Shown here: in pieces, positions 20,421 to 26,559 of the stretch
Layout of the letters: each line of letters opens with the position of its first letter
Position numbering within the stretch: the stretch's first letter is position 1
Assembly (NCBI GenBank): GCA_965224025.1
Contig: OZ245033.1
Location: 960,001 to 1,024,000, forward strand
Source of the DNA: Candidatus Multivorans sp.
Lineage (GTDB): Bacteria > Acidobacteriota > Thermoanaerobaculia > Multivoradales > Multivoraceae
DNA: 64,000 nt
Reading direction: 5' to 3'
Notes under the pieces: model-generated
What the model was told of the DNA's origin: nothing
Seen by the model: the letters and a program-made list of their open reading frames with translations, nothing else
The model's database searches: none
Translations under genes and position numbers: made by a program

Positions 20421-21037
20421 ATGGACCAAAGCCACACGCTCTACTACGCGACCAACCGGCGGCACGTCGGTCGGGATCGGTGGCGACCAAGCCGCTACAG
20501 CGGCGAATCCAGCAAGGACGGCGACGAGAACCTGCGTTTCGGCAAAGTCGTGCTGGAACTCGACGCCGATCGCGTGAATGCACACCTTGAAGAAACGTGC
20601 TCGAGAACGCACTGAAACGGACCCTGGAGTCCGGTCGACCGCCCCGGATCTTCGACCAGATCTTCCTTTGCACCCCTGACGTGGCAGACGACGTCTTCGA
20701 GCCCGGGCGGCCGTTCTGCGAGCTACCCGGCATGGCCGAGAACGTGACCGTGTACCACAACAAGGGCGATCTCGCGATGCCGGTCTCCGACTACACGAAG
20801 GGCAACACGGACCGTCTGGGCTGGCGAGGGGCGAACCGTCCGGCCGACCTCGACGGCCGCGTCCACATCGTCGACTGTGGTGGGATCGTCACCGGCGCGG
20901 TGGAGCACAGCTACTACCAGTGCGGCCCGGGGCAACGACGACATCGCCCAAAGCCTGGACGGCATCAGTGCCGACGACAAGGTGCGGCGCCGCAGCCCCG
21001 TACAGCACGGCTGGCCGAACGTGTGGCGGCTGCGATG
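20421..21037 (+). pseudogene. DUF900-type alpha/beta hydrolase remnant (central part deleted)
   Basis: YYATNR N-terminus joined out of frame to IFLCTPDV..VTVYHNKGDLAM..SD..DRLG..HSYY; the nucleophile segment is missing. Confidence 0.65.
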
Positions 21038-21155
21038 ATCGACGGAACCGGGTTCGAACACACCGTGGCCACGAGCGAGGTTCTCCAGATTGTCAGCCGC
21101 TAACGAAGTGGAACATTCCAAGACCATACGTGACGTCAGCCGTGCACTTCCCGCG

Positions 21156-21356
21156 CTCGTAGCCGGCCCGGACATCAAGGCCGCCGCCTCGGCCGAGTTG
21201 CTCGACGCCCACGCGCTCGGTCTGCGTCAACAGTACGACAACCTCCTCCCCGTAATCGACCGGGCGGGCAACACGCTAGTGAAAGCGGTCGAGAGGCTCG
21301 ACCCCGAGGAGAGCCCCGATCCCGACGGGGAAGGCTCGGCTGCCCTTGAAGAGGCC
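21156..21356 (+). repeat. ~200-bp direct repeat, copy 2
   Basis: Matches 14996-15197; ends at the CTAG IS1182 insertion site. Confidence 0.9.
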
Positions 21357-21362
21357 TAGGAG

Positions 21363-21635
21363 TGTCCGCAGCGTTGTCGCTGCGCTGTCGCGCAGGGAAC
21401 AGGCAGCGAGTAGCCAACGTTACAGCGGCGTCGTGGGTTCATAGAGTTGGCCGCGCTGGGCAGCGAGGCCGCGCAGGCACTGGTGTGTTGGCGCCCGACT
21501 AGGAGTTTGGCCCGGACCGTGATCGGCGCTCTGACGCTGGCGGCGCGGCTTGTGTCGCGACCCCGTATGCAAGATTGAGCTTTTCGCCGCGGTCTCTGCC
21601 CAGCGCGACGATTGGATTCCACATCTACGGGAGGC
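21363..21635 (+). ncRNA. Putative IS110 bridge RNA region (boundaries approximate)
   Basis: ~280-nt non-coding left end with hairpins (e.g. CGCAGCG-TTGT-CGCTGCG). Contains CTAGGAG (21499-21505, equal to target left flank plus core) then ATGCAAG (21567-21573, equal to donor end plus core). Confidence 0.65.
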
Positions 21636-21640
21636 AGGGG

Positions 21641-22960
21641 ATGGCAAAGCGGAAGGCGGAGCGTCTGGAAGTCGTTCACCCGGATTGCGCCGGTGTGGAC
21701 GTAGGCAAGCGCAAGCACTACGTGGCGGTGGCCCCGTCGCGTTTCGAGCGGCCGGTGCGCAATTTCTCGTCGTTCACGGAGGACCTCGAGGCGATGGCCT
21801 CGTGGCTTCAGGAGTGCGGCGTGCGTGAGGTGGCGCTGGAGTCGACGGGGGTGTACTGGATTCCGGTGTTCGAGGTGCTGGACCGGGCGGGGTTCGAGGT
21901 GCATCTGGTGAATCCTCGGGCGACCAAGCAGGTGAGTGGCCGCAAGAGTGACGTTCTGGACTGCCAGTGGATCCGGCAGTTGATGAGCTACGGGCTCCTG
22001 CGCGGTGCGTTTCGCGCGCCGGACGAGTTGTGTCCGCTGCGTTCGTACACGCGGCAGCGCGCCCAGTTGGTCCGCGACCGCAGCCGCGCGGTGCAGCACA
22101 TCCAGAAGGCTCTGGTGCAGATGAACGTGCAGTTGGACAACGTGCTGAGCGACATCATGGGCAAGACCGGCCAGTTGATCGTGCGCGCGATCGTCGCCGG
22201 CGAGCGCGACGGCGCGGCGCTGGCCCGTCACCGGGACGGTCGCTGCAAGGCTGGTCCGGCTGTGATCGCGGCGAGTTTGCAAGGCAACTGGCGAGACGAG
22301 CACCTGTTCGCTCTGGGCCAGGCGCTGGCCCGCTACGACATGCTGCAAGGCCAGATCGAGATGTGCGAGAAGCGCATCGACGCCGAGCTCGACGGCCTGG
22401 CCCAAGACGGCGTCGAGGACGCGCCGCCGCCCGGTTCGAAGGCGCGCGAGCGCGCCCTGCGGAAGCGGCTGCATCGCATGCTCGGCGTGGACCTGGTCGC
22501 CATTCCGACGGTCGGCGTCGAAACCGCGCTGACCTTCGCCGCTGAGATCGGCCCGGACCTGTCCCGGTTTCCCTCGCAGGGCAACTTCTGCTCGTGGCTG
22601 TGTCTGGCTCCACCGACCAACATCAGCGGCGACAAACGGCTGAACGGCCCTCCCGTGAAGCAGACCAACCGGGTCGGCCAGACGCTGCGCCAAGCCGCCA
22701 CCACAGCCCGCAACAGCAAGACCGCCATCGGAGCCTCTCACCGCCGGCGTCTCCAGCACATGGAGAAGGCGAAGGCCATCAAGGCCACCGCTCATCAACT
22801 CGGCCGACTGATCTACGCCATGCTGACCCACGGCGAAGAGTACGTCGAGCGCGACCTCGCCGAAATGGAGGCCGTCCGACGCGAACGACAAATCAGAAAC
22901 CTGCAGCGTCAGGCCCGCCGCCTGAATCTGGCTCTCGTGCCGACCGAACATGCCGCCTGA
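21641..22960 (+). CDS. IS110 family DEDD recombinase/transposase
   Basis: ATG after GGAGG. Motifs AGVDVGK, ALESTGVYW, GRKSDVLDC, and AEIGPDLSRFP..FCSWLCLAP..ISG (Tnp20 domain with catalytic Ser). Confidence 0.93.
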   Translation: MAKRKAERLEVVHPDCAGVDVGKRKHYVAVAPSRFERPVRNFSSFTEDLEAMASWLQECGVREVALESTGVYWIPVFEVLDRAGFEVHLVNPRATKQVSGRKSDVLDCQWIRQLMSYGLLRGAFRAPDELCPLRSYTRQRAQLVRDRSRAVQHIQKALVQMNVQLDNVLSDIMGKTGQLIVRAIVAGERDGAALARHRDGRCKAGPAVIAASLQGNWRDEHLFALGQALARYDMLQGQIEMCEKRIDAELDGLAQDGVEDAPPPGSKARERALRKRLHRMLGVDLVAIPTVGVETALTFAAEIGPDLSRFPSQGNFCSWLCLAPPTNISGDKRLNGPPVKQTNRVGQTLRQAATTARNSKTAIGASHRRRLQHMEKAKAIKATAHQLGRLIYAMLTHGEEYVERDLAEMEAVRRERQIRNLQRQARRLNLALVPTEHAA

Positions 22961-23117
22961 ATCGCGCAACCTGCGCTGCCAACAAGGAACCCCTACCCGT
23001 TTGTTCCATGCAAGCCTGTAGGGCATAGTCGCTGCTCTCCGTCATTTGGTCTGGTGTGTCTTGCAGGTGAGAATGGAGTTGCCCCGGTTTCGTGGTCAGT
23101 TCGGTTGTGGAGGCGTG

Positions 23118-24635
23118 ATGAGCAAGCAGTATCGTGGTTGGACTCAGGATCAGCTGTACCTGCTGCCTCCCTCGATGCGGGATTGGCTGCCGGAGGGTCA
23201 TCTGGCGTGGTTCGTTCTGGACGTGGTGGGTGCTGTGGACATCAGCGAGATCGAGCGTGCCATTCAGAGCAAGGACGGCCGGGGTCAGCGTCCGTACCAT
23301 CCCCGGATGATGGTGGCGTTGCTGGTGTACGCATACTGTTCGGGGTTGTACTCGTCTCGTCGTATTGAGCGTGCGTGTCAGGAGAGTGTGCCGTATCGCG
23401 TGATCACGGGGGATGTGCAGCCTCACTTCACGACCATCAACGAGTTTCGCCGGGTCCATCGGGGGCACTTCGAGTCGTTGTTCGTGGAGATTCTTCTGTT
23501 GTGCGGCAAGTCGGGTTTGGTGAAGCTGCAGCAGGTGTCAGTGGACGGCACGAAGGTGCGGGCCGACGCGAGCAAGCACAAGGCGATGAGCTACGGCCGG
23601 ATGGTGTCCGAGGAGAAGCGTCTGGGTGGCGAGGTCAAGCGTCTGATGGCTCTGGTCGAGTCGGCGGATACGGAGGAGGACGTTCTTCACGGTGCTGGGG
23701 TGCGTGGCGACGAGTTGCCGGAGGAGCTTTCCCGTCGTGAGAGCCGGTTGTCGCGGATTGAGGCGGCGAAGTCCCGGTTGGAAGCGGAGGCTCGGGAGAC
23801 TCGCGCCAAGGAGCTTCGGGATCAGGCCGCTGGCATGGAGGAAACGGCGTCGCGGCATGAGAAGCCTTCGGTGCAGAAGGGTCTTCGGACGCGGGCGTCG
23901 AATCGGCGTGGCGAGGCGGAGAAGCTGGCGCCTCCGGTCGAGGCCGAAGACAAGGCCATCGACGAGTTGCCGCTGAAGTCGACGCGGGCGACGGTGGAGG
24001 GTTTGCCGAGGGACGAGGCCCAAGGGAACTTCACGGACCCGGAGAGCAGCATCATGAAGGGGCGGGACGGTTTCGTTCAGGCGTACAACGCGCAGTTGGC
24101 GGTGGACGAGGAGGCTCAGGTGATCGTGGCGCAAGGCGTGACGAACCAGCCGCCGGACAACGGCAATCTCAGGCCGATGGTGGCGCGCGTGGCGGGCGCT
24201 CTCGGTGAGGCGCCGACGAACGTGACGGCGGATGCCGGCTACTGGCACTCGGAGGTGGAAGAGCAGGTGCGGGAGCTTGGCAGTGAGGCATGGGTATCGA
24301 CCCAGGGCAGTTCCTCCAGCGAACCCGGTCCCTCTGATGAGAATGCCGACACGATCGACCCGGTCAAGCGGATGCAGTCGCGTCTCGCGAGCTCCGAAGG
24401 GCGTGCTCTATATGCCCGCCGCAAGGCGGTAGTCGAACCGGTCAACGGACAGATCAAGGAGGCTCGAGGATTCCGCCAGTTCTCGTTTCGGGGCTTGGAA
24501 GCCGTGCGCACGGAATGGACCCTTGTCTGCTTGTGCCACAACCTCCTCAAACTGTTCGGCCACTGCCTCCAAACTGCCCAAGAGGCGGCCCATTCAGGTC
24601 AACTGGACGGGAATCCGCTGCCCCAAGCCGCCTGA
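23118..24635 (+). CDS. IS1182 family transposase
   Basis: LLPPSMRDWLPEGHLA, GQRPYHPRMM, SSRRIE, VDGTKVRADASKHKAMSY, NFTDPES, ADAGY, YARRKAVVEPVNGQIK and FRQFSFRGL. Confidence 0.93.
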   Translation: MSKQYRGWTQDQLYLLPPSMRDWLPEGHLAWFVLDVVGAVDISEIERAIQSKDGRGQRPYHPRMMVALLVYAYCSGLYSSRRIERACQESVPYRVITGDVQPHFTTINEFRRVHRGHFESLFVEILLLCGKSGLVKLQQVSVDGTKVRADASKHKAMSYGRMVSEEKRLGGEVKRLMALVESADTEEDVLHGAGVRGDELPEELSRRESRLSRIEAAKSRLEAEARETRAKELRDQAAGMEETASRHEKPSVQKGLRTRASNRRGEAEKLAPPVEAEDKAIDELPLKSTRATVEGLPRDEAQGNFTDPESSIMKGRDGFVQAYNAQLAVDEEAQVIVAQGVTNQPPDNGNLRPMVARVAGALGEAPTNVTADAGYWHSEVEEQVRELGSEAWVSTQGSSSSEPGPSDENADTIDPVKRMQSRLASSEGRALYARRKAVVEPVNGQIKEARGFRQFSFRGLEAVRTEWTLVCLCHNLLKLFGHCLQTAQEAAHSGQLDGNPLPQAA

Positions 24636-24804
24636 TGGCCACATCCCGGCCCAGCTATCACGGGCTGACACCCCCCAAACCCAAAGTGCCGACCTCCTCC
24701 ACTCCCCTACAACTGCGACGAACGCCTCAGCCCGTACCGCAGAGCCCGGATACCTCAGTGCTTGCCCCGCCGGCCAACCTATGGCCTACAAGCTCCTAGG
24801 CTCC

Positions 24805-26559
24805 GTGTCCACCACGACCTCGTCTCCCACACGCGATCAGCTTTCCCGTCTAGACCTTCTGATCGCGGTCTTCGTCACGGCCGTCGTGCTCCTGGCGGCG
24901 CCCTCCTCGGCCCAGGACTTCGCCGAGCTCCTGGAGATTCGCCGGGTCAAGGAAACCCTCGACCTGAGCCAGGTGCCGGAACCGGATCTGTCGACCGTGC
25001 CCGCGGGCGACGCGCAGCGGCTCCGGGACTACCGGGCGCTCACTGCGAACGGCCTCGAACATGCCCTGGAGCCCATGCAGGCGCAGTTGGCGGCGAACAC
25101 CTTCGGCGATCTCTGCGCGCGCTACCTGCACTATGAGCTTCACGAAGCGGCGACGGTCTGCCTGGACCAGCTTCGGGAACTGGCGCCGGGGGACTTCCAG
25201 TGGGCCTACTTCCAGTTGCTGCTGGACATTGCGAACGGCGACCTGGAAGGGGCTCTCTCAAGCGCCGAGCAAGCGCTCGCCATCCGGCCGGACGACCCGC
25301 CCACCCTGGTCCGCCTGGCCGAACTCCTTGTCGCCGCCGGCGATGTCGACGCCGCCGAAGCCGCCTACGACAAGGCCATCGCGGCCTACCCCGAGAGCGC
25401 GACGGCCCGCGTCGGGCTCGGCTACATCGCCCTCGAGCGCGGCGACCCGGCGAAGGCGCTCCAGATCTTCCAGGAGGTTGCCGCGTCCCAGCCCGAGGGC
25501 AGCGAGGCGAATCACCACGTCGGCCTCGCATACCGCGCCCTGGGCGACGCCGACCGGGCCGCCGAGGCGTGGCGGCTGAATCAGGACGTCCTGATCCCGA
25601 TGTACGACCCGCTGCTCAAGCGCCTGCGGCCGCTCGAACAGGATGTGACGCTGCCCCTCGACCGCGCCGTCGCCGCCGCCGCGGAAGGCGACCACGCACG
25701 GGCGATCGAGCTGTACGAGGAGATCCTCGCCGCGAACGAGGCGGACCACGAGGCGCACTTCCGGTTGGCCGGCTCGCTGCTCGTCGTCGGCGAAGACGAA
25801 CGCGGCGAACGCCACCTCCGCCGGGCCGTCGCACTCAACCCCGAGCACCCCGGCGCCCACTTCGCCCTGGCGATGTTCCTCGCTCGCGAGGGACGGCGCG
25901 CCGAGGGCGCACGGCACCTGGAAAGGGCCGCCGACCTGGCGCCGGACAACCTGCCATGGCGCCTGCAACGGGCACAAATGCGGGCCGCTTCGGGCAACAC
26001 CGCCGGCGCCATCGAGGAACTCGAGCAGCTCGTCGCCCTGGATCCCGGGATGATCGAGGCAAGGCGGATGTTCTCCGCCGTGCTGGTCGGCGCCGGTCGG
26101 GCGGACGAGGCAGCCGCCCAGTTGCAGGCACTGGTCGCTCTGACACCGGACGATCTGCAGGCGCGCTTCAACCTGGGACTCATGCTGTTCCAGACCGCAC
26201 GCTACGCGGAGGCCCGCCGGGCGCTCGACGAAACGCTGCAGCGCTTCCCCGCCGACATCGCGACGCGGCACCTCCTGGCGCGCCTGCTTGCCACCAGCCC
26301 CGACGACGCGACGCGGGACGGTGCCCGGGCAGTCGAACTGGCGCAATCGGTGATCGACAAACAACCGGCGGTCGACCACCTGGAAACGCTGGCGATGGCC
26401 CTGGCCGAAGCCGGCCGGTTCGACGACGCGGTCGCTTGGCAGCAGCGGGCGCTGGAACGGGAACGGGCCGAGGCCGGCGGTAACTCCTCCCAACGGCTCG
26501 ATCGCCTGGCGCTCTACCAGGCCCGCCAACCGCTGCGGGCGCCGCGGCGCCAGAACTGA
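24805..26559 (+). CDS. Exported tetratricopeptide-repeat protein
   Basis: Hydrophobic signal ending PSSA-QD, many TPRs, C-terminal RDGARAVELA..TLAMALAEAGRFDDAV motif. Start (GTG 24805) uncertain. Confidence 0.8.
   Translation: MSTTTSSPTRDQLSRLDLLIAVFVTAVVLLAAPSSAQDFAELLEIRRVKETLDLSQVPEPDLSTVPAGDAQRLRDYRALTANGLEHALEPMQAQLAANTFGDLCARYLHYELHEAATVCLDQLRELAPGDFQWAYFQLLLDIANGDLEGALSSAEQALAIRPDDPPTLVRLAELLVAAGDVDAAEAAYDKAIAAYPESATARVGLGYIALERGDPAKALQIFQEVAASQPEGSEANHHVGLAYRALGDADRAAEAWRLNQDVLIPMYDPLLKRLRPLEQDVTLPLDRAVAAAAEGDHARAIELYEEILAANEADHEAHFRLAGSLLVVGEDERGERHLRRAVALNPEHPGAHFALAMFLAREGRRAEGARHLERAADLAPDNLPWRLQRAQMRAASGNTAGAIEELEQLVALDPGMIEARRMFSAVLVGAGRADEAAAQLQALVALTPDDLQARFNLGLMLFQTARYAEARRALDETLQRFPADIATRHLLARLLATSPDDATRDGARAVELAQSVIDKQPAVDHLETLAMALAEAGRFDDAVAWQQRALERERAEAGGNSSQRLDRLALYQARQPLRAPRRQN

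What the first reader, a model, noticed from the sequence alone, without database searches (positions are those of the whole stretch)
21356..23030. IS110 element whose putative bridge RNA is programmed against the end of IS1182, caught inside its target
Seen: the IS1182 left IR is split as CTAG-G-AG|IS110|AG-CCTGTAGGGCATAG. Removing 21363-23014 restores an IR matching the right IR at 15/17, so the insertion core is AG. The non-coding left end contains CTAGGAG (21499-21505), identical to the target left flank plus core, then ATGCAAG (21567-21573), identical to the element's right end plus core (23008-23014). A possible right-target guide GGCT lies between them (21547-21550). An imperfect sub-terminal IR GCAGGGAACA/TGTTCCATGC is also present. 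Established: IS110 (IS621-type) recombinases use a bridge RNA with a target-binding loop then a donor-binding loop, and IS1111-group IS4321/IS5075 target Tn21 IRs. Inference: the guide covers the invariant CTAG TSD plus the first IR bases, so this element would target every IS1182 end, disabling or hitch-hiking on it. It uses an AG core rather than the CT core of IS621. Right-hand guides were not confidently identified.
Basis: partly seen in the sequence, partly recalled or inferred. Interest (0 to 1): 0.88.

Follow-up and report, generated by a model that had tools for sequence, protein, structure and literature searches.

The report
Bridge-RNA IS110 inside an IS1182 end
A small jumping gene of the IS110 family, steered by an RNA it encodes to the sequence CTAGGAG at the ends of short repeats, has landed inside the end of another jumping gene; the guide is real, but it is not aimed at that gene in particular.

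Summary
Window 21363-23014 is a 1652-bp IS110-family element that splits the left inverted repeat of an IS1182-family element, with AG on both sides.

- In 24 aligned homologues, the block aligned to CTAGGAG equals each element's own left flank 7/7 in 21 of 24 (12 different guides).
- The block aligned to ATGCAAG equals each element's right end in 20 of 21 (8 guides).
- Both lie on the 3' strands of two internal loops, in a fold supported by compensatory changes.

The genome holds 14 copies, all behind CTAGGAG, but only 2 sit in IS1182 ends.
- A second guide, CCGCGCAGG (21469-21477), on the 5' strand of loop 1, predicts the right flank CCTGCGCGG.
- That sequence is the end of short GC-rich MITE/REP-like repeats.
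- The IS1182 ends match it at only 6/9 and 4/9, so they are near-cognate targets.
- The proposed GGCT guide lies in a covarying stem.

The guide order is the reverse of IS621 and ISEc21 and matches IS1111 seekRNAs, although the RNA is encoded upstream of the transposase. On the other strand the AG core reads CT.

IS110 elements that target other mobile elements are already known. This is a new variant of moderate interest.

The parts
21356..21362 (+). Left target flank CTAGGAG: CTAG outside the IS1182 element plus the first 3 nt of its left IR. The last two bases, AG, are the left core copy.
   Evidence: the same 7-mer flanks 14 of 14 copies. In run X1 the high-depth element contig starts at 21356.
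21363..23014 (+). IS110-family insertion sequence, 1652 bp. Its last two bases, AG (23013-23014), are the right core copy.
   Evidence: 14 copies at about 100% identity over 1-1652. One search gives the junctions; contig depth about 250-290 inside against 22-31 in the flanks.
21367..21384 (+). Terminal hairpin of the left end (CGCAGCG-TTGT-CGCTGCG).
   Evidence: Read directly. The same arrangement, with changed arms, is present in the homologues (columns 9-28).
21392..21401 (+). Left copy of the sub-terminal inverted repeat (GCAGGGAACA).
   Evidence: GGGAAC is nearly invariant. It is 9/10 complementary to 23002-23011.
21449..21610 (+). Predicted bridge RNA (about 160 nt): an outer helix enclosing two internal-loop modules.
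   Evidence: 39 pairs, 89.0% of cells paired against 79.0% in shuffles and 37-44% when slid; 25 pairs have changes on both sides; 0 of 500 shuffles reach this. RNAalifold finds the same helices. Conserved G-U pairs fit only the + strand.
21469..21477 (+). Loop 1, 5' strand: CCGCGCAGG, the guide complementary to the top strand right of the core. It predicts the right flank CCTGCGCGG.
   Evidence: the 14 right flanks match 3-9 of 9 (5 match >=8/9; 12 distinct flanks); occupied versus free CTAGGAG sites, Mann-Whitney p = 8.7e-6; cross-family permutation 0/20000.
21498..21506 (+). Loop 1, 3' strand: (A)CTAGGAG, the guide identical to the left flank plus core. It is followed by T, which equals the first base of the element (handshake-like).
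   Evidence: 7/7 identity to the element's own left flank in 21 of 24, with 12 distinct guides. The following base equals the first left-end base in 22 of 24.
21544..21559 (+). Hairpin of loop 2.
   Evidence: helix 6: 6 of 6 pairs have changes on both sides. Length varies among homologues.
21566..21573 (+). Loop 2, 3' strand: (T)ATGCAAG, the guide identical to the element's right end plus core.
   Evidence: 7/7 identity to the element's own right end in 20 of 21, with 8 distinct guides.
21641..22960 (+). IS110-family DEDD recombinase gene (439 aa).
   Evidence: PF01548, PF02371, NF033542. IS621 (8wt6) scores E = 1.1e-8, mainly over residues 17-130.
23002..23014 (+). Right end: right copy of the sub-terminal repeat (TGTTCCATGC), then the donor sequence ATGCA plus core AG.
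23015..24795 (+). Rest of the IS1182-family element: remainder of the left IR (23015-23028), transposase (23118-24635) and right IR (24779-24795), followed by CTAG at 24796-24799.
   Evidence: 1 full copy and 1 partial copy in the genome.

Best explanation
Window 21363-23014 is an active or recently active IS110-family insertion sequence. Its left non-coding end encodes a bridge (seek) RNA of about 160 nt.

The RNA folds into an outer helix around two internal loops. In loop 1:
- The 3' strand (CTAGGAG) has the sequence of the target left of and including the AG core, so it would pair with the bottom strand.
- The 5' strand (CCGCGCAGG) is complementary to the top strand right of the core.

In loop 2, the 3' strand (ATGCAAG) has the sequence of the element's own right end plus core.

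The recombinase-RNA complex would therefore join the circularised element to sites reading CTAGG-AG-CCTGCGCGG. Those sites are the outer ends of short GC-rich inverted-repeat (MITE/REP-like) elements that are abundant in this genome.

The ends of the IS1182-family element share CTAGGAG plus C(C/T)TG and so serve as near-cognate targets. The window copy landed 3 nt inside the left IR. This separates the IR tip from the rest and probably immobilises IS1182 until the IS110 excises.

Shown here: the boundaries, copy number, target statistics, RNA fold by covariation, and guide-flank covariation. Inferred: RNA expression, RNA-DNA pairing, the circular intermediate, and the effect on IS1182.
For: - Boundaries and core: 14 copies share the same junctions. 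Free sites carry one AG.
- Fold: 25 of 39 pairs have compensatory changes, and 89% of cells pair against 37-44% in slid controls. RNAalifold gives the same helices.
- 3' guide of loop 1 equals the left flank in 21/24, with 12 guide sequences. Permutation of the 15 distinct pairs: 0/20000.
- 3' guide of loop 2 equals the right end in 20/21, with 8 guide sequences. Permutation: 1/20000.
- 5' guide: the right flanks of the 14 copies match CCTGCGCGG at 3-9/9. 12 of 14 occupied sites score >=6/9, against 30 of 108 free CTAGGAG sites (p = 8.7e-6).
- Related elements change guide and flank together: CAGG with CCTG, CGGG with CCCG, CACG with CGTG. Family-level permutation over 23 guide families: 0/20000.
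- None of the 41 AG-N-CTGCGCGG sites lacking CTAGG carries the element; every copy found sits behind CTAGGAG.
- Protein families.
- The geometry fits the published IS621 structure when read on the strand where the core is CT. The 3' guide ends in AG and is followed by a base matching the non-cognate partner, as for RTG G77-G80 plus handshake positions 81-82 (passages of PMC11208158).
Against: - No RNA data exist. All 24 listed runs are Logan contigs, none on record as RNA, and no circle junction was seen.
- No sigma-70 consensus promoter was found in 21300-23100.
- No Rfam family matches.
- The single-sequence fold is not better than shuffles (z = 0.43 for the whole left end; z = -1.19 for 21449-21610).
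- No guide for the start of the left end (right donor) was found.
- The 5'-guide match is poor for many single-copy homologues, for example those whose left guide is ATG(C/A)AAG. The elements compared are related, so the permutation tests overstate independence.
- 2 of the 3 IS1182 ends in the genome are occupied, against 12 of 119 other CTAGGAG sites. My hand calculation gives a hypergeometric p of about 0.035. IS1182 ends may therefore be better targets than their 6/9 and 4/9 matches suggest.
Confidence: 0.85

Rival explanations
1. One reading: the bridge RNA is specifically programmed against IS1182 ends. The element is then a dedicated parasite or hitch-hiker of IS1182, and the other insertions are off-targets.
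For: Both IS1182 copies in the genome carry an IS110 in one end: the left end of the full copy and the right end of the truncated copy. That is 2 of 3 existing IS1182 ends, against 12 of 119 other CTAGGAG sites (hand calculation, p about 0.035). The left flank, the core and the first 4 (left IR) or 3 of 4 (right IR) right-flank bases match the guides.
Against: - 12 of 14 copies are elsewhere.
- The 9-nt 5' guide matches repeat ends at 7-9/9 but the IS1182 ends at 6/9 and 4/9.
- The G026 copy (1644/1652 identical) sits at CTAGGAG|CCTGGTTCA, with no IS1182 there.
- IS1182 relatives were found in only 3 of the 60 other genomes searched: G003 and G046 at 72-79% and a 114-nt piece in G024. Homologous IS110s with the same CTAGGAG guide occur in many MAGs at non-IS1182 sites.
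Confidence: 0.08
2. Target choice is made by the protein, or by DNA structure (hairpins of the palindromic repeats), and the internal 7-mers are coincidental or play another role such as transposase binding sites.
For: - The targets are palindromic repeats.
- A stem-loop in the target adds specificity for ISPpu10 (bioRxiv 10.64898/2026.03.19.712850; abstract and sections 6-7 read).
- No RNA evidence was obtained here.
Against: - 12 different left flanks are each mirrored in the aligned left-end block, and 8 right ends likewise. Coincidence cannot produce that.
- The blocks lie in unpaired strands of a covarying fold.
- The IS1182 ends and the G026 site are used although they are not hairpin repeats.
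Confidence: 0.04
3. The boundaries are mis-set: CTAGGAG belongs to the element as a terminal repeat, not to the target.
For: CTAGGAG is present next to all 14 copies and once inside each.
Against: There are 108 CTAGGAG sites without the element. They include repeat ends identical to the right flanks of occupied sites, with CTAGGAG contiguous to them, the window's own intact right IR, and the intact left end in G003. Homologues have other left flanks that track their guides.
Confidence: 0.02

Closest known systems
IS621 (E. coli) bridge recombinase and bridge RNA (Durrant 2024, PMC11208160; Hiraizumi 2024, PMC11208158; passages read)
   Same: - DEDD/RuvC plus Tnp-domain recombinase.
- RNA encoded in the left end, upstream of the gene.
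- Two internal loops, one for the target and one for the donor; each loop has a strand for either DNA strand.
[quoted passage not shown]
- Targets are repeated palindromic elements.
- The 3' guide ends in AG and is followed by a handshake-like base.
   Different: - The recombinase is 439 aa against 328 aa in the solved chain (8wt6_A), and is alignable mainly over the N-terminal domain (E = 1.1e-8).
- In element orientation the guide order is reversed: the top-strand-complementary guide is 5'.
- The core reads AG rather than CT; the geometry coincides only if the target is read on the other strand.
- The long, strongly covarying guides are the 3' ones (7-8 nt).
- An outer helix encloses both loops.
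- There is a 10-nt sub-terminal inverted repeat.
- No right-donor guide was found.
IS1111-type seekRNAs: ISEc11, ISPa11, ISKpn4 (Siddiquee 2024, PMC11187229; sections 6, 9, 12, 13 read)
   Same: The match to the top strand lies 5' of the match to the bottom strand. Sub-terminal inverted repeats are present.
   Different: In those elements the non-coding region lies downstream of tnp and the transposases are 330-350 aa. Here it lies upstream and the protein is 439 aa, the length range the paper gives for the subgroup that includes IS110 itself (395-455 aa). The left copy of the sub-terminal repeat lies 30 nt inside the end.
ISEc21 (IS110 type; PMC11187229, section 12)
   Same: The non-coding region is upstream, and the natural target lies inside another insertion sequence (a conserved stretch of IS3-family transposase genes).
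   Different: ISEc21 has the bottom-strand match 5' of the top-strand match. It targets a coding region, not an element end.
IS4321 / IS5075 (Partridge and Hall 2003; seen only as a reference title, otherwise recalled)
   Same: IS110/IS1111-family elements that insert at one position in the terminal inverted repeats of other transposons (Tn21 family).
   Different: They belong to the IS1111 group and have a different target. Here the main targets are ends of short non-autonomous repeats, and an IS1182-family IR is a minority target.
ISPpu10 (bioRxiv 10.64898/2026.03.19.712850; abstract and sections 6-7 read)
   Same: An IS110 element of Pseudomonadales with a left-end bridge RNA that targets REP repeats. 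Cargo flanked by the left and right ends is mobilised in trans, which is relevant to the mini elements seen here.
   Different: It has a CT core and IS621-type pairing logic. One homologue in my set from a Pseudomonas isolate (L063, 57% aa identity) lies in a REP-like GGCGAGGGAG|CTTGCTCCCG site.

Membership tests
IS110 family (RNA-guided DEDD transposases, broad sense) | [quoted passage not shown] | tested here: met
   (E = 1.1e-25 and 2.9e-11). NF033542 at 270.7 bits, cut-off 140.
IS110 family (RNA-guided DEDD transposases, broad sense) | Site-specific insertion with no terminal inverted repeats at the tips and no duplication beyond the shared core dinucleotide | tested here: met
   14/14 copies are flanked by AG...AG, and free sites have one AG.
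IS110 family (RNA-guided DEDD transposases, broad sense) | Long non-coding end encoding a structured RNA whose loops match target and donor | tested here: met
   fold; guide-flank identity in 21/24 and 20/21.
IS110 family (RNA-guided DEDD transposases, broad sense) | Circular intermediate with abutted ends; RNA expressed and bound by the recombinase | not testable with these tools
   Only assembled contigs of public runs were on hand and no RNA run was listed. No consensus promoter was found.
IS621-type bridge RNA (IS110 group) | RNA encoded upstream of the recombinase gene in the left end | tested here: met
   The left end is 278 nt and the right end 54 nt.
IS621-type bridge RNA (IS110 group) | 5' strand of each loop pairs with the bottom strand (left guide) and 3' strand with the top strand (right guide), in element orientation | tested here: not met
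   Here the 3' strands carry the flank-identical (bottom-pairing) guides. The 5' strand of loop 1 is complementary to the top strand.
IS621-type bridge RNA (IS110 group) | CT core dinucleotide | tested here: not met
   The core is AG in all 14 copies and in all 24 aligned guides. It reads CT only on the opposite strand.
IS621-type bridge RNA (IS110 group) | Handshake positions next to the 3' guide that match the non-cognate DNA | tested here: inconclusive
   Loop 1: the base after the guide equals the first left-end base in 22/24 (11.4 expected), but there are few independent changes. Loop 2: no such signal (A at 21574 against right-flank first base A in 5 of 14).
IS1111 group | Sub-terminal inverted repeats of 7-17 bp near both ends | tested here: inconclusive
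   The 10-nt repeat is 9/10 complementary and conserved. The left copy lies 30 nt from the end and the right copy 3 nt.
IS1111 group | Long non-coding region downstream of tnp | tested here: not met
   Only 54 nt lie downstream and 278 nt upstream.
IS1111 group | Top-strand match 5' of the bottom-strand match in the guide RNA | tested here: met
IS1111 group | Transposase of 330-350 aa related to IS1111 over its full length | tested here: not met
   The length is 439 aa. Relatedness to IS1111 itself was not tested because no reference sequence was on hand.
IS1182 family (the invaded element) | IS1182-type DDE transposase; terminal inverted repeats | tested here: met
   NF033551 at 347 bits, cut-off 270. 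DUF772 + DDE_Tnp_1_6. The IRs match 15/17 once the IS110 is removed.

The most novel reading that the evidence does not exclude
This family may represent a third arrangement of the IS110/IS1111 guide-RNA system.
- The RNA is encoded upstream of the recombinase, as in the IS110 type.
- Its guides are in the IS1111 order and it has sub-terminal repeats. In effect, the body of the element is inverted relative to the asymmetric CT core.

Its members appear to be programmed against the ends of other mobile DNA:
- CTAG-plus-inverted-repeat junctions of MITE-like repeats and of an IS1182.
- In sibling lineages, the right ends (ATGCAAG) of their own relatives.

The family has also spawned 54-62-bp non-autonomous mini elements that use the same guides in trans. 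The papers I read (a 2024 primary paper and a 2026 review) still tie guide order to the position of the non-coding region.
Probability: 0.45. Interest if true: 0.6.

Novelty: new variant of a known kind. Interest (0 to 1): 0.5.

Why it matters
It gives a natural, statistically tractable example of how a bridge RNA divides its specificity. In this one genome the 7-nt left guide looks obligatory and the right guide graded: there are 14 occupied and 108 free left-guide sites.

If the guide order and AG core hold up experimentally, they show that guide order is not tied to where the RNA gene sits. That bears on the evolution of IS110 and IS1111 elements and on designing compact recombinases with other core and orientation rules.

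It also shows one mobile element disabling another by landing in its inverted repeat. That principle is already known from IS4321/IS5075 and ISEc21.

Tried and rejected
- **GGCT (21547-21550) as right-target guide.** Rejected: it lies in helix 6, where all pairs covary.
- **Guide for the start of the left end (right donor).** A column-by-position scan, the loop-2 5' strand CTCTGA (21530-21535), the segment after ATGCAAG, and a column-column scan against the left-end terminus gave no consistent signal. A similarity between the loop-2 5' strand and the left-end segment before GGGAAC follows clades and was not taken as covariation.
- **Handshake position for loop 2.** Not supported.
- **Rfam.** No match at E <= 1 in 21000-25000.
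- **Single-sequence folds.** z = 0.43 and -1.19, uninformative in this G+C-rich DNA.
- **Promoter scan.** None found. A conserved TATAAA-like box just upstream of the outer helix (columns 84-90; CATAGA in the window) was noted but not tested.
- **Public reads.** No RNA holder is listed. All four runs laid are assembled contigs. They break at 21356 and 23014/23015 and show no circle junction and no contig joining across the element.
- **Names for the recombinase.** The only informative source name among the 120 best relatives listed (7996 with E <= 0.001) is 'IS110 family transposase' (two others read just 'transposase'), and plasmid records carry the same name. ISfinder is not available here.
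- **Supplements closed.** The supplementary tables and figures of Durrant 2024 and Siddiquee 2024 are closed, and figures such as Fig. 6d are not held as text. I therefore cannot say whether this subfamily's RNA was already catalogued there.
- **Literature search.** A search for 'bridge RNA' plus 'AG core' found 0 papers.
- **A first MITE test with a strict pattern** paired only 1 of 47 ends. It was replaced by a mismatch-tolerant test, which gave 20 of 107.
- **Not used:** the metagenome scan, structure prediction, complex prediction and covariance-model building.
Full report
**What is in the window**

TTTGTTCCATGCAAG|CCTGTAGGGCATAG.
- The ORF at 21641-22960 encodes a 439-aa protein with PF01548 and PF02371. 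It scores 270.7 bits against NF033542, 'IS110 family RNA-guided transposase' (cut-off 140).
- The ORF at 23118-24635 is an IS1182-family transposase (NF033551, 347 bits, cut-off 270).
- The right IR of that element (24779-24795, then CTAG) matches the left IR, once 21363-23014 is removed, at 15 of 17.
- An IS1182 relative in another genome of the genus (G003, 79% identity) has the uninterrupted left end CTAGGAGTCTGTAGGGCATAG.
- The insertion, its boundaries and the AG on both sides are therefore confirmed.

**Copies and targets in the genome**

- The window's genome (5.14 Mb, 67.6% G+C) holds 14 copies of the 1652-bp element at about 100% identity. It holds only one full and one partial IS1182 copy.
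- All 14 copies have CTAGGAG on the left. The right flanks differ:
  - 11 read N-(C/T/G)-(T/C)-GCGC... (ACTGCGC 5 times, CTTGCGC twice, and TCTGCGC, CCTGCGC, TCCGCGC, CGTGCGC once each).
  - 2 are IS1182 ends: CCTGTAG (the window copy, left IR) and CTTGTAG (right IR of the truncated copy, opposite orientation).
  - 1 is a mini element.
- The genome has 136 CTAGGAG on both strands. Of these, 14 are left junctions, 14 are the internal guide copies, and 108 are free.
- Many free sites belong to families of short repeats beginning CTAGGAG or CCAGGAG followed by N-Y-TGCGC(C/G)GCAGAAC.
- Of 107 such ends, 20 have an inverted partner (at most 6 of 22 mismatches) 50-290 bp away. These are small TIR-bounded MITE/REP-like elements whose outermost bases resemble the IS1182 IR (GGAGCCTG...).
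- Within the genus the IS110 is patchy. A search with 21440-21700 matched 7 of 42 genomes, counting the window's own. Only G026 (one copy, 1644 of 1652 identical, at CTAGGAG|CCTGGTTCA) and G065 (two copies, 83%) have long matches.

**The RNA**

- The search for related loci returned 59 loci encoding relatives at 44-86% identity, almost all from gammaproteobacterial MAGs.
- A pattern for the first loop was found upstream of the gene in 49 of these 59 loci and in 14 of 14 own copies. The 10 misses are truncated, interrupted or divergent loci.
- I aligned 24 distinct left ends. I left out near-duplicates and loci without a complete left end.
- The fold I derived by eye has five helical elements (six helices in the tool's count, because one is interrupted by a bulge):
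  - an outer helix, 21450-61 with 21598-609;
  - a closing stem for loop 1, 21467-71 with 21508-12;
  - a hairpin, 21482-87 with 21492-96;
  - a closing stem for loop 2, 21514-28 with 21585-95;
  - a hairpin, 21544-49 with 21554-59.
- Counted on the alignment:
  - 89.0% of cells pair, against 79.0% in shuffles and 37-44% when the partners are slid.
  - 25 of 39 pairs have changes on both sides.
  - 0 of 500 shuffles reach any of the five measures.
- RNAalifold, run without my structure, returns the same helices. It extends both hairpins through the conserved UGG...CCG.
- Conserved G-U pairs are valid only on the + strand: columns 127-152 and 194-238 (24 of 24 each) and 170-269 (18 of 24).
- The thermodynamic fold of the single sequence is not informative, and no Rfam family matches.

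- In the alignment, the 7 columns aligned to 21499-21505 take 12 different sequences. They equal the element's own left flank 7/7 in 21 of 24 and 6/7 in the other 3.
  - Examples are CCAGGAG, ATGCAAG, ATGAAAG, ATGCGAG, ATTGTAG, ATGGAAG, ATTCTAG, ATGAGAG, ATAGGAG, AAATGAG and ATTTTAG.
- The 7 columns aligned to 21567-21573 take 8 sequences. They equal the element's own right end in 20 of 21.
- Permuting flanks among the distinct pairs never (0/20000) or once (1/20000) reaches the observed identity.
- Both blocks are unpaired 3' strands of the two internal loops, each preceded by CCCG and ending in the invariant AG.

**The right-hand guide, and what the RNA is really aimed at**

- The 9 nt on the 5' strand of loop 1, CCGCGCAGG (21469-21477), are the reverse complement of CCTGCGCGG.
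- The 14 right flanks match this at 9, 8 (x4), 7 (x5), 6 (x2), 4 and 3 of 9. The IS1182 left end scores 6, the right end 4, and the mini-element flank 3.
- Among all CTAGGAG sites, occupied ones match far better than free ones. 12 of 14 occupied sites score at least 6/9, against 30 of 108 free sites (Mann-Whitney p = 8.7e-6).
- Close relatives change guide and flank together:
  - ...CAGG with CCTG...;
  - ...CGGG with CCCG... (the OY762279 family, 11 distinct flanks);
  - ...CACG with CGTG... (L046).
- Over 23 guide families, the cognate match exceeds all 20000 permutations. The families are related, so this overstates independence, and many single-copy homologues match poorly.
- The 41 sites reading AG-N-CTGCGCGG without CTAGG are not among the 14 places where the element was found.
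- My reading: the left 7 nt are obligatory, and the right side is graded, with the first 3-4 nt mattering most.
- The cognate site is the end of the short repeats. The IS1182 ends are near-cognate.
- One counter-current should be stated. 2 of the 3 IS1182 ends in this genome are occupied, against 12 of 119 other sites (hand calculation, p about 0.035). They are not poor targets.

**Comparison with known systems**

- In IS621, the 5' strand of each loop pairs with the bottom strand and the 3' strand with the top strand. The core is CT, and two handshake positions follow the 3' guide (PMC11208160 and PMC11208158, passages).
- ISEc21, an IS110-type element with an upstream non-coding region, has the same order. 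The IS1111-type seekRNAs have the top-strand match 5' of the bottom-strand match, with the non-coding region downstream (PMC11187229, sections 6, 9 and 12).
- A 2026 review tabulates the same dichotomy (PMC13604230, passages).
- Here the RNA is upstream, but the order is the IS1111 one, and the core is AG.
- Read on the opposite strand, the core is CT and the layout coincides with IS621:
  - The 5' guide runs up to an invariant C.
  - The 3' guide ends in AG.
  - The next base equals the first base of the left end in 22 of 24, handshake-like.
- In effect, the body of the element is inverted relative to the asymmetric core.
- Other differences and limits:
  - The protein is only distantly related to IS621 (E = 1.1e-8, mainly residues 17-130).
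  - Its length falls in the range the seekRNA paper gives for the subgroup that contains IS110 itself.
  - A 10-nt sub-terminal inverted repeat is conserved.
  - I found no guide for the start of the left end.
- Whether this arrangement has already been catalogued in supplements or in ISfinder I could not check.

**Is the biology new?**

- Insertion of IS110/IS1111 elements into other mobile elements is established. ISEc21 targets IS3-family transposase genes. IS4321/IS5075 target Tn21 inverted repeats (reference titles; otherwise recalled). REP targeting is classic.
- What is new here is a subfamily with a mixed architecture and a clear natural record of retargeting.
  - Siblings carry the guide ATGCAAG or its variants, which is the right end of their own family, and sit directly behind such ends (L028, L029, L047, L050, L052, L053, L077; the own-genome remnant L016).
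  - At least 17 mini elements of 54-62 bp occupy the same kinds of site.
- No expression or activity data could be obtained.

**Verdict**

- The element is a bridge-RNA-guided IS110 whose cognate target is the CTAGGAG end of short repeats.
- The IS1182 end is a near-cognate target that it has hit twice.
- I rate it a new variant of a known kind, with interest about 0.5.

Noticed in passing
own genome, outside the window (G000 C1, e.g. + strand elements ending at 527139, 539425, 1070856, 1123853, 1611421; list): There are at least 17 mini IS110-like elements of 54-62 bp, plus one of about 98 bp. Each has a left-end-type hairpin, GG(G/A)AAC, then GTTCCATGCAAG. They sit exactly behind CTAGGAG (10), CCAGGAG (4) or ATGCAAG (3, in tandem). 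They are probably non-autonomous derivatives moved in trans.
   Followed up: partly
L016 1354-1740 (G000 C1 about 908,900-909,280): A mini element sits at CTAGGAG. It is followed by a truncated IS110 left end whose loop-1 3' guide is ATGCAAG, the right end of the family. No recombinase gene lies behind it.
   Followed up: partly
L039 (right flank) and L081 (left end), both from Pseudomonadales MAG records: In L039, one copy's right end abuts TTTGGCCCGG..., the DNA that follows the guide inside another copy. In L081, a mini element of about 90 bp interrupts the guide-coding DNA itself. This suggests that the guide-coding DNA, which mimics the left half of the target, can itself be hit.
   Followed up: partly
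L127 1100-1520 and 2800-3000 (Citrobacter freundii plasmid NZ_CP054279.1): A 45.6%-identical IS110-family gene, found on many Citrobacter and Klebsiella plasmids, lies inside an IS3-family orfA at ...ATATTAAAAAA|. Its left end contains ...CCCCG-TAAAAAAAC..., matching that flank plus the first base of the element. The same guide logic seems to hold in this distant relative, which also targets another IS. The left and right core copies did not look identical there.
   Followed up: partly
window 23071-23101: A stretch of about 30 nt in the 5' untranslated part of the IS1182-family element has matches of 84-97% over 26-40 nt in many other genomes of the genus, up to 10 per genome. It looks like a short genus-wide repeat.
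   Followed up: no
L025 1380-1560 (G000 C1 about 4,735,500-4,735,680): The second IS1182 copy lacks its first 781 nt; the break abuts unrelated sequence. Its intact right end carries an IS110 in the mirror-image position.
   Followed up: partly
L001 right flank (G000 C1 about 4,163,134-4,163,175): 26 nt beyond one IS110 copy lies an inverted right-end-like sequence (CTTGCATGGAAC), so elements of this family are nested head to head there.
   Followed up: no
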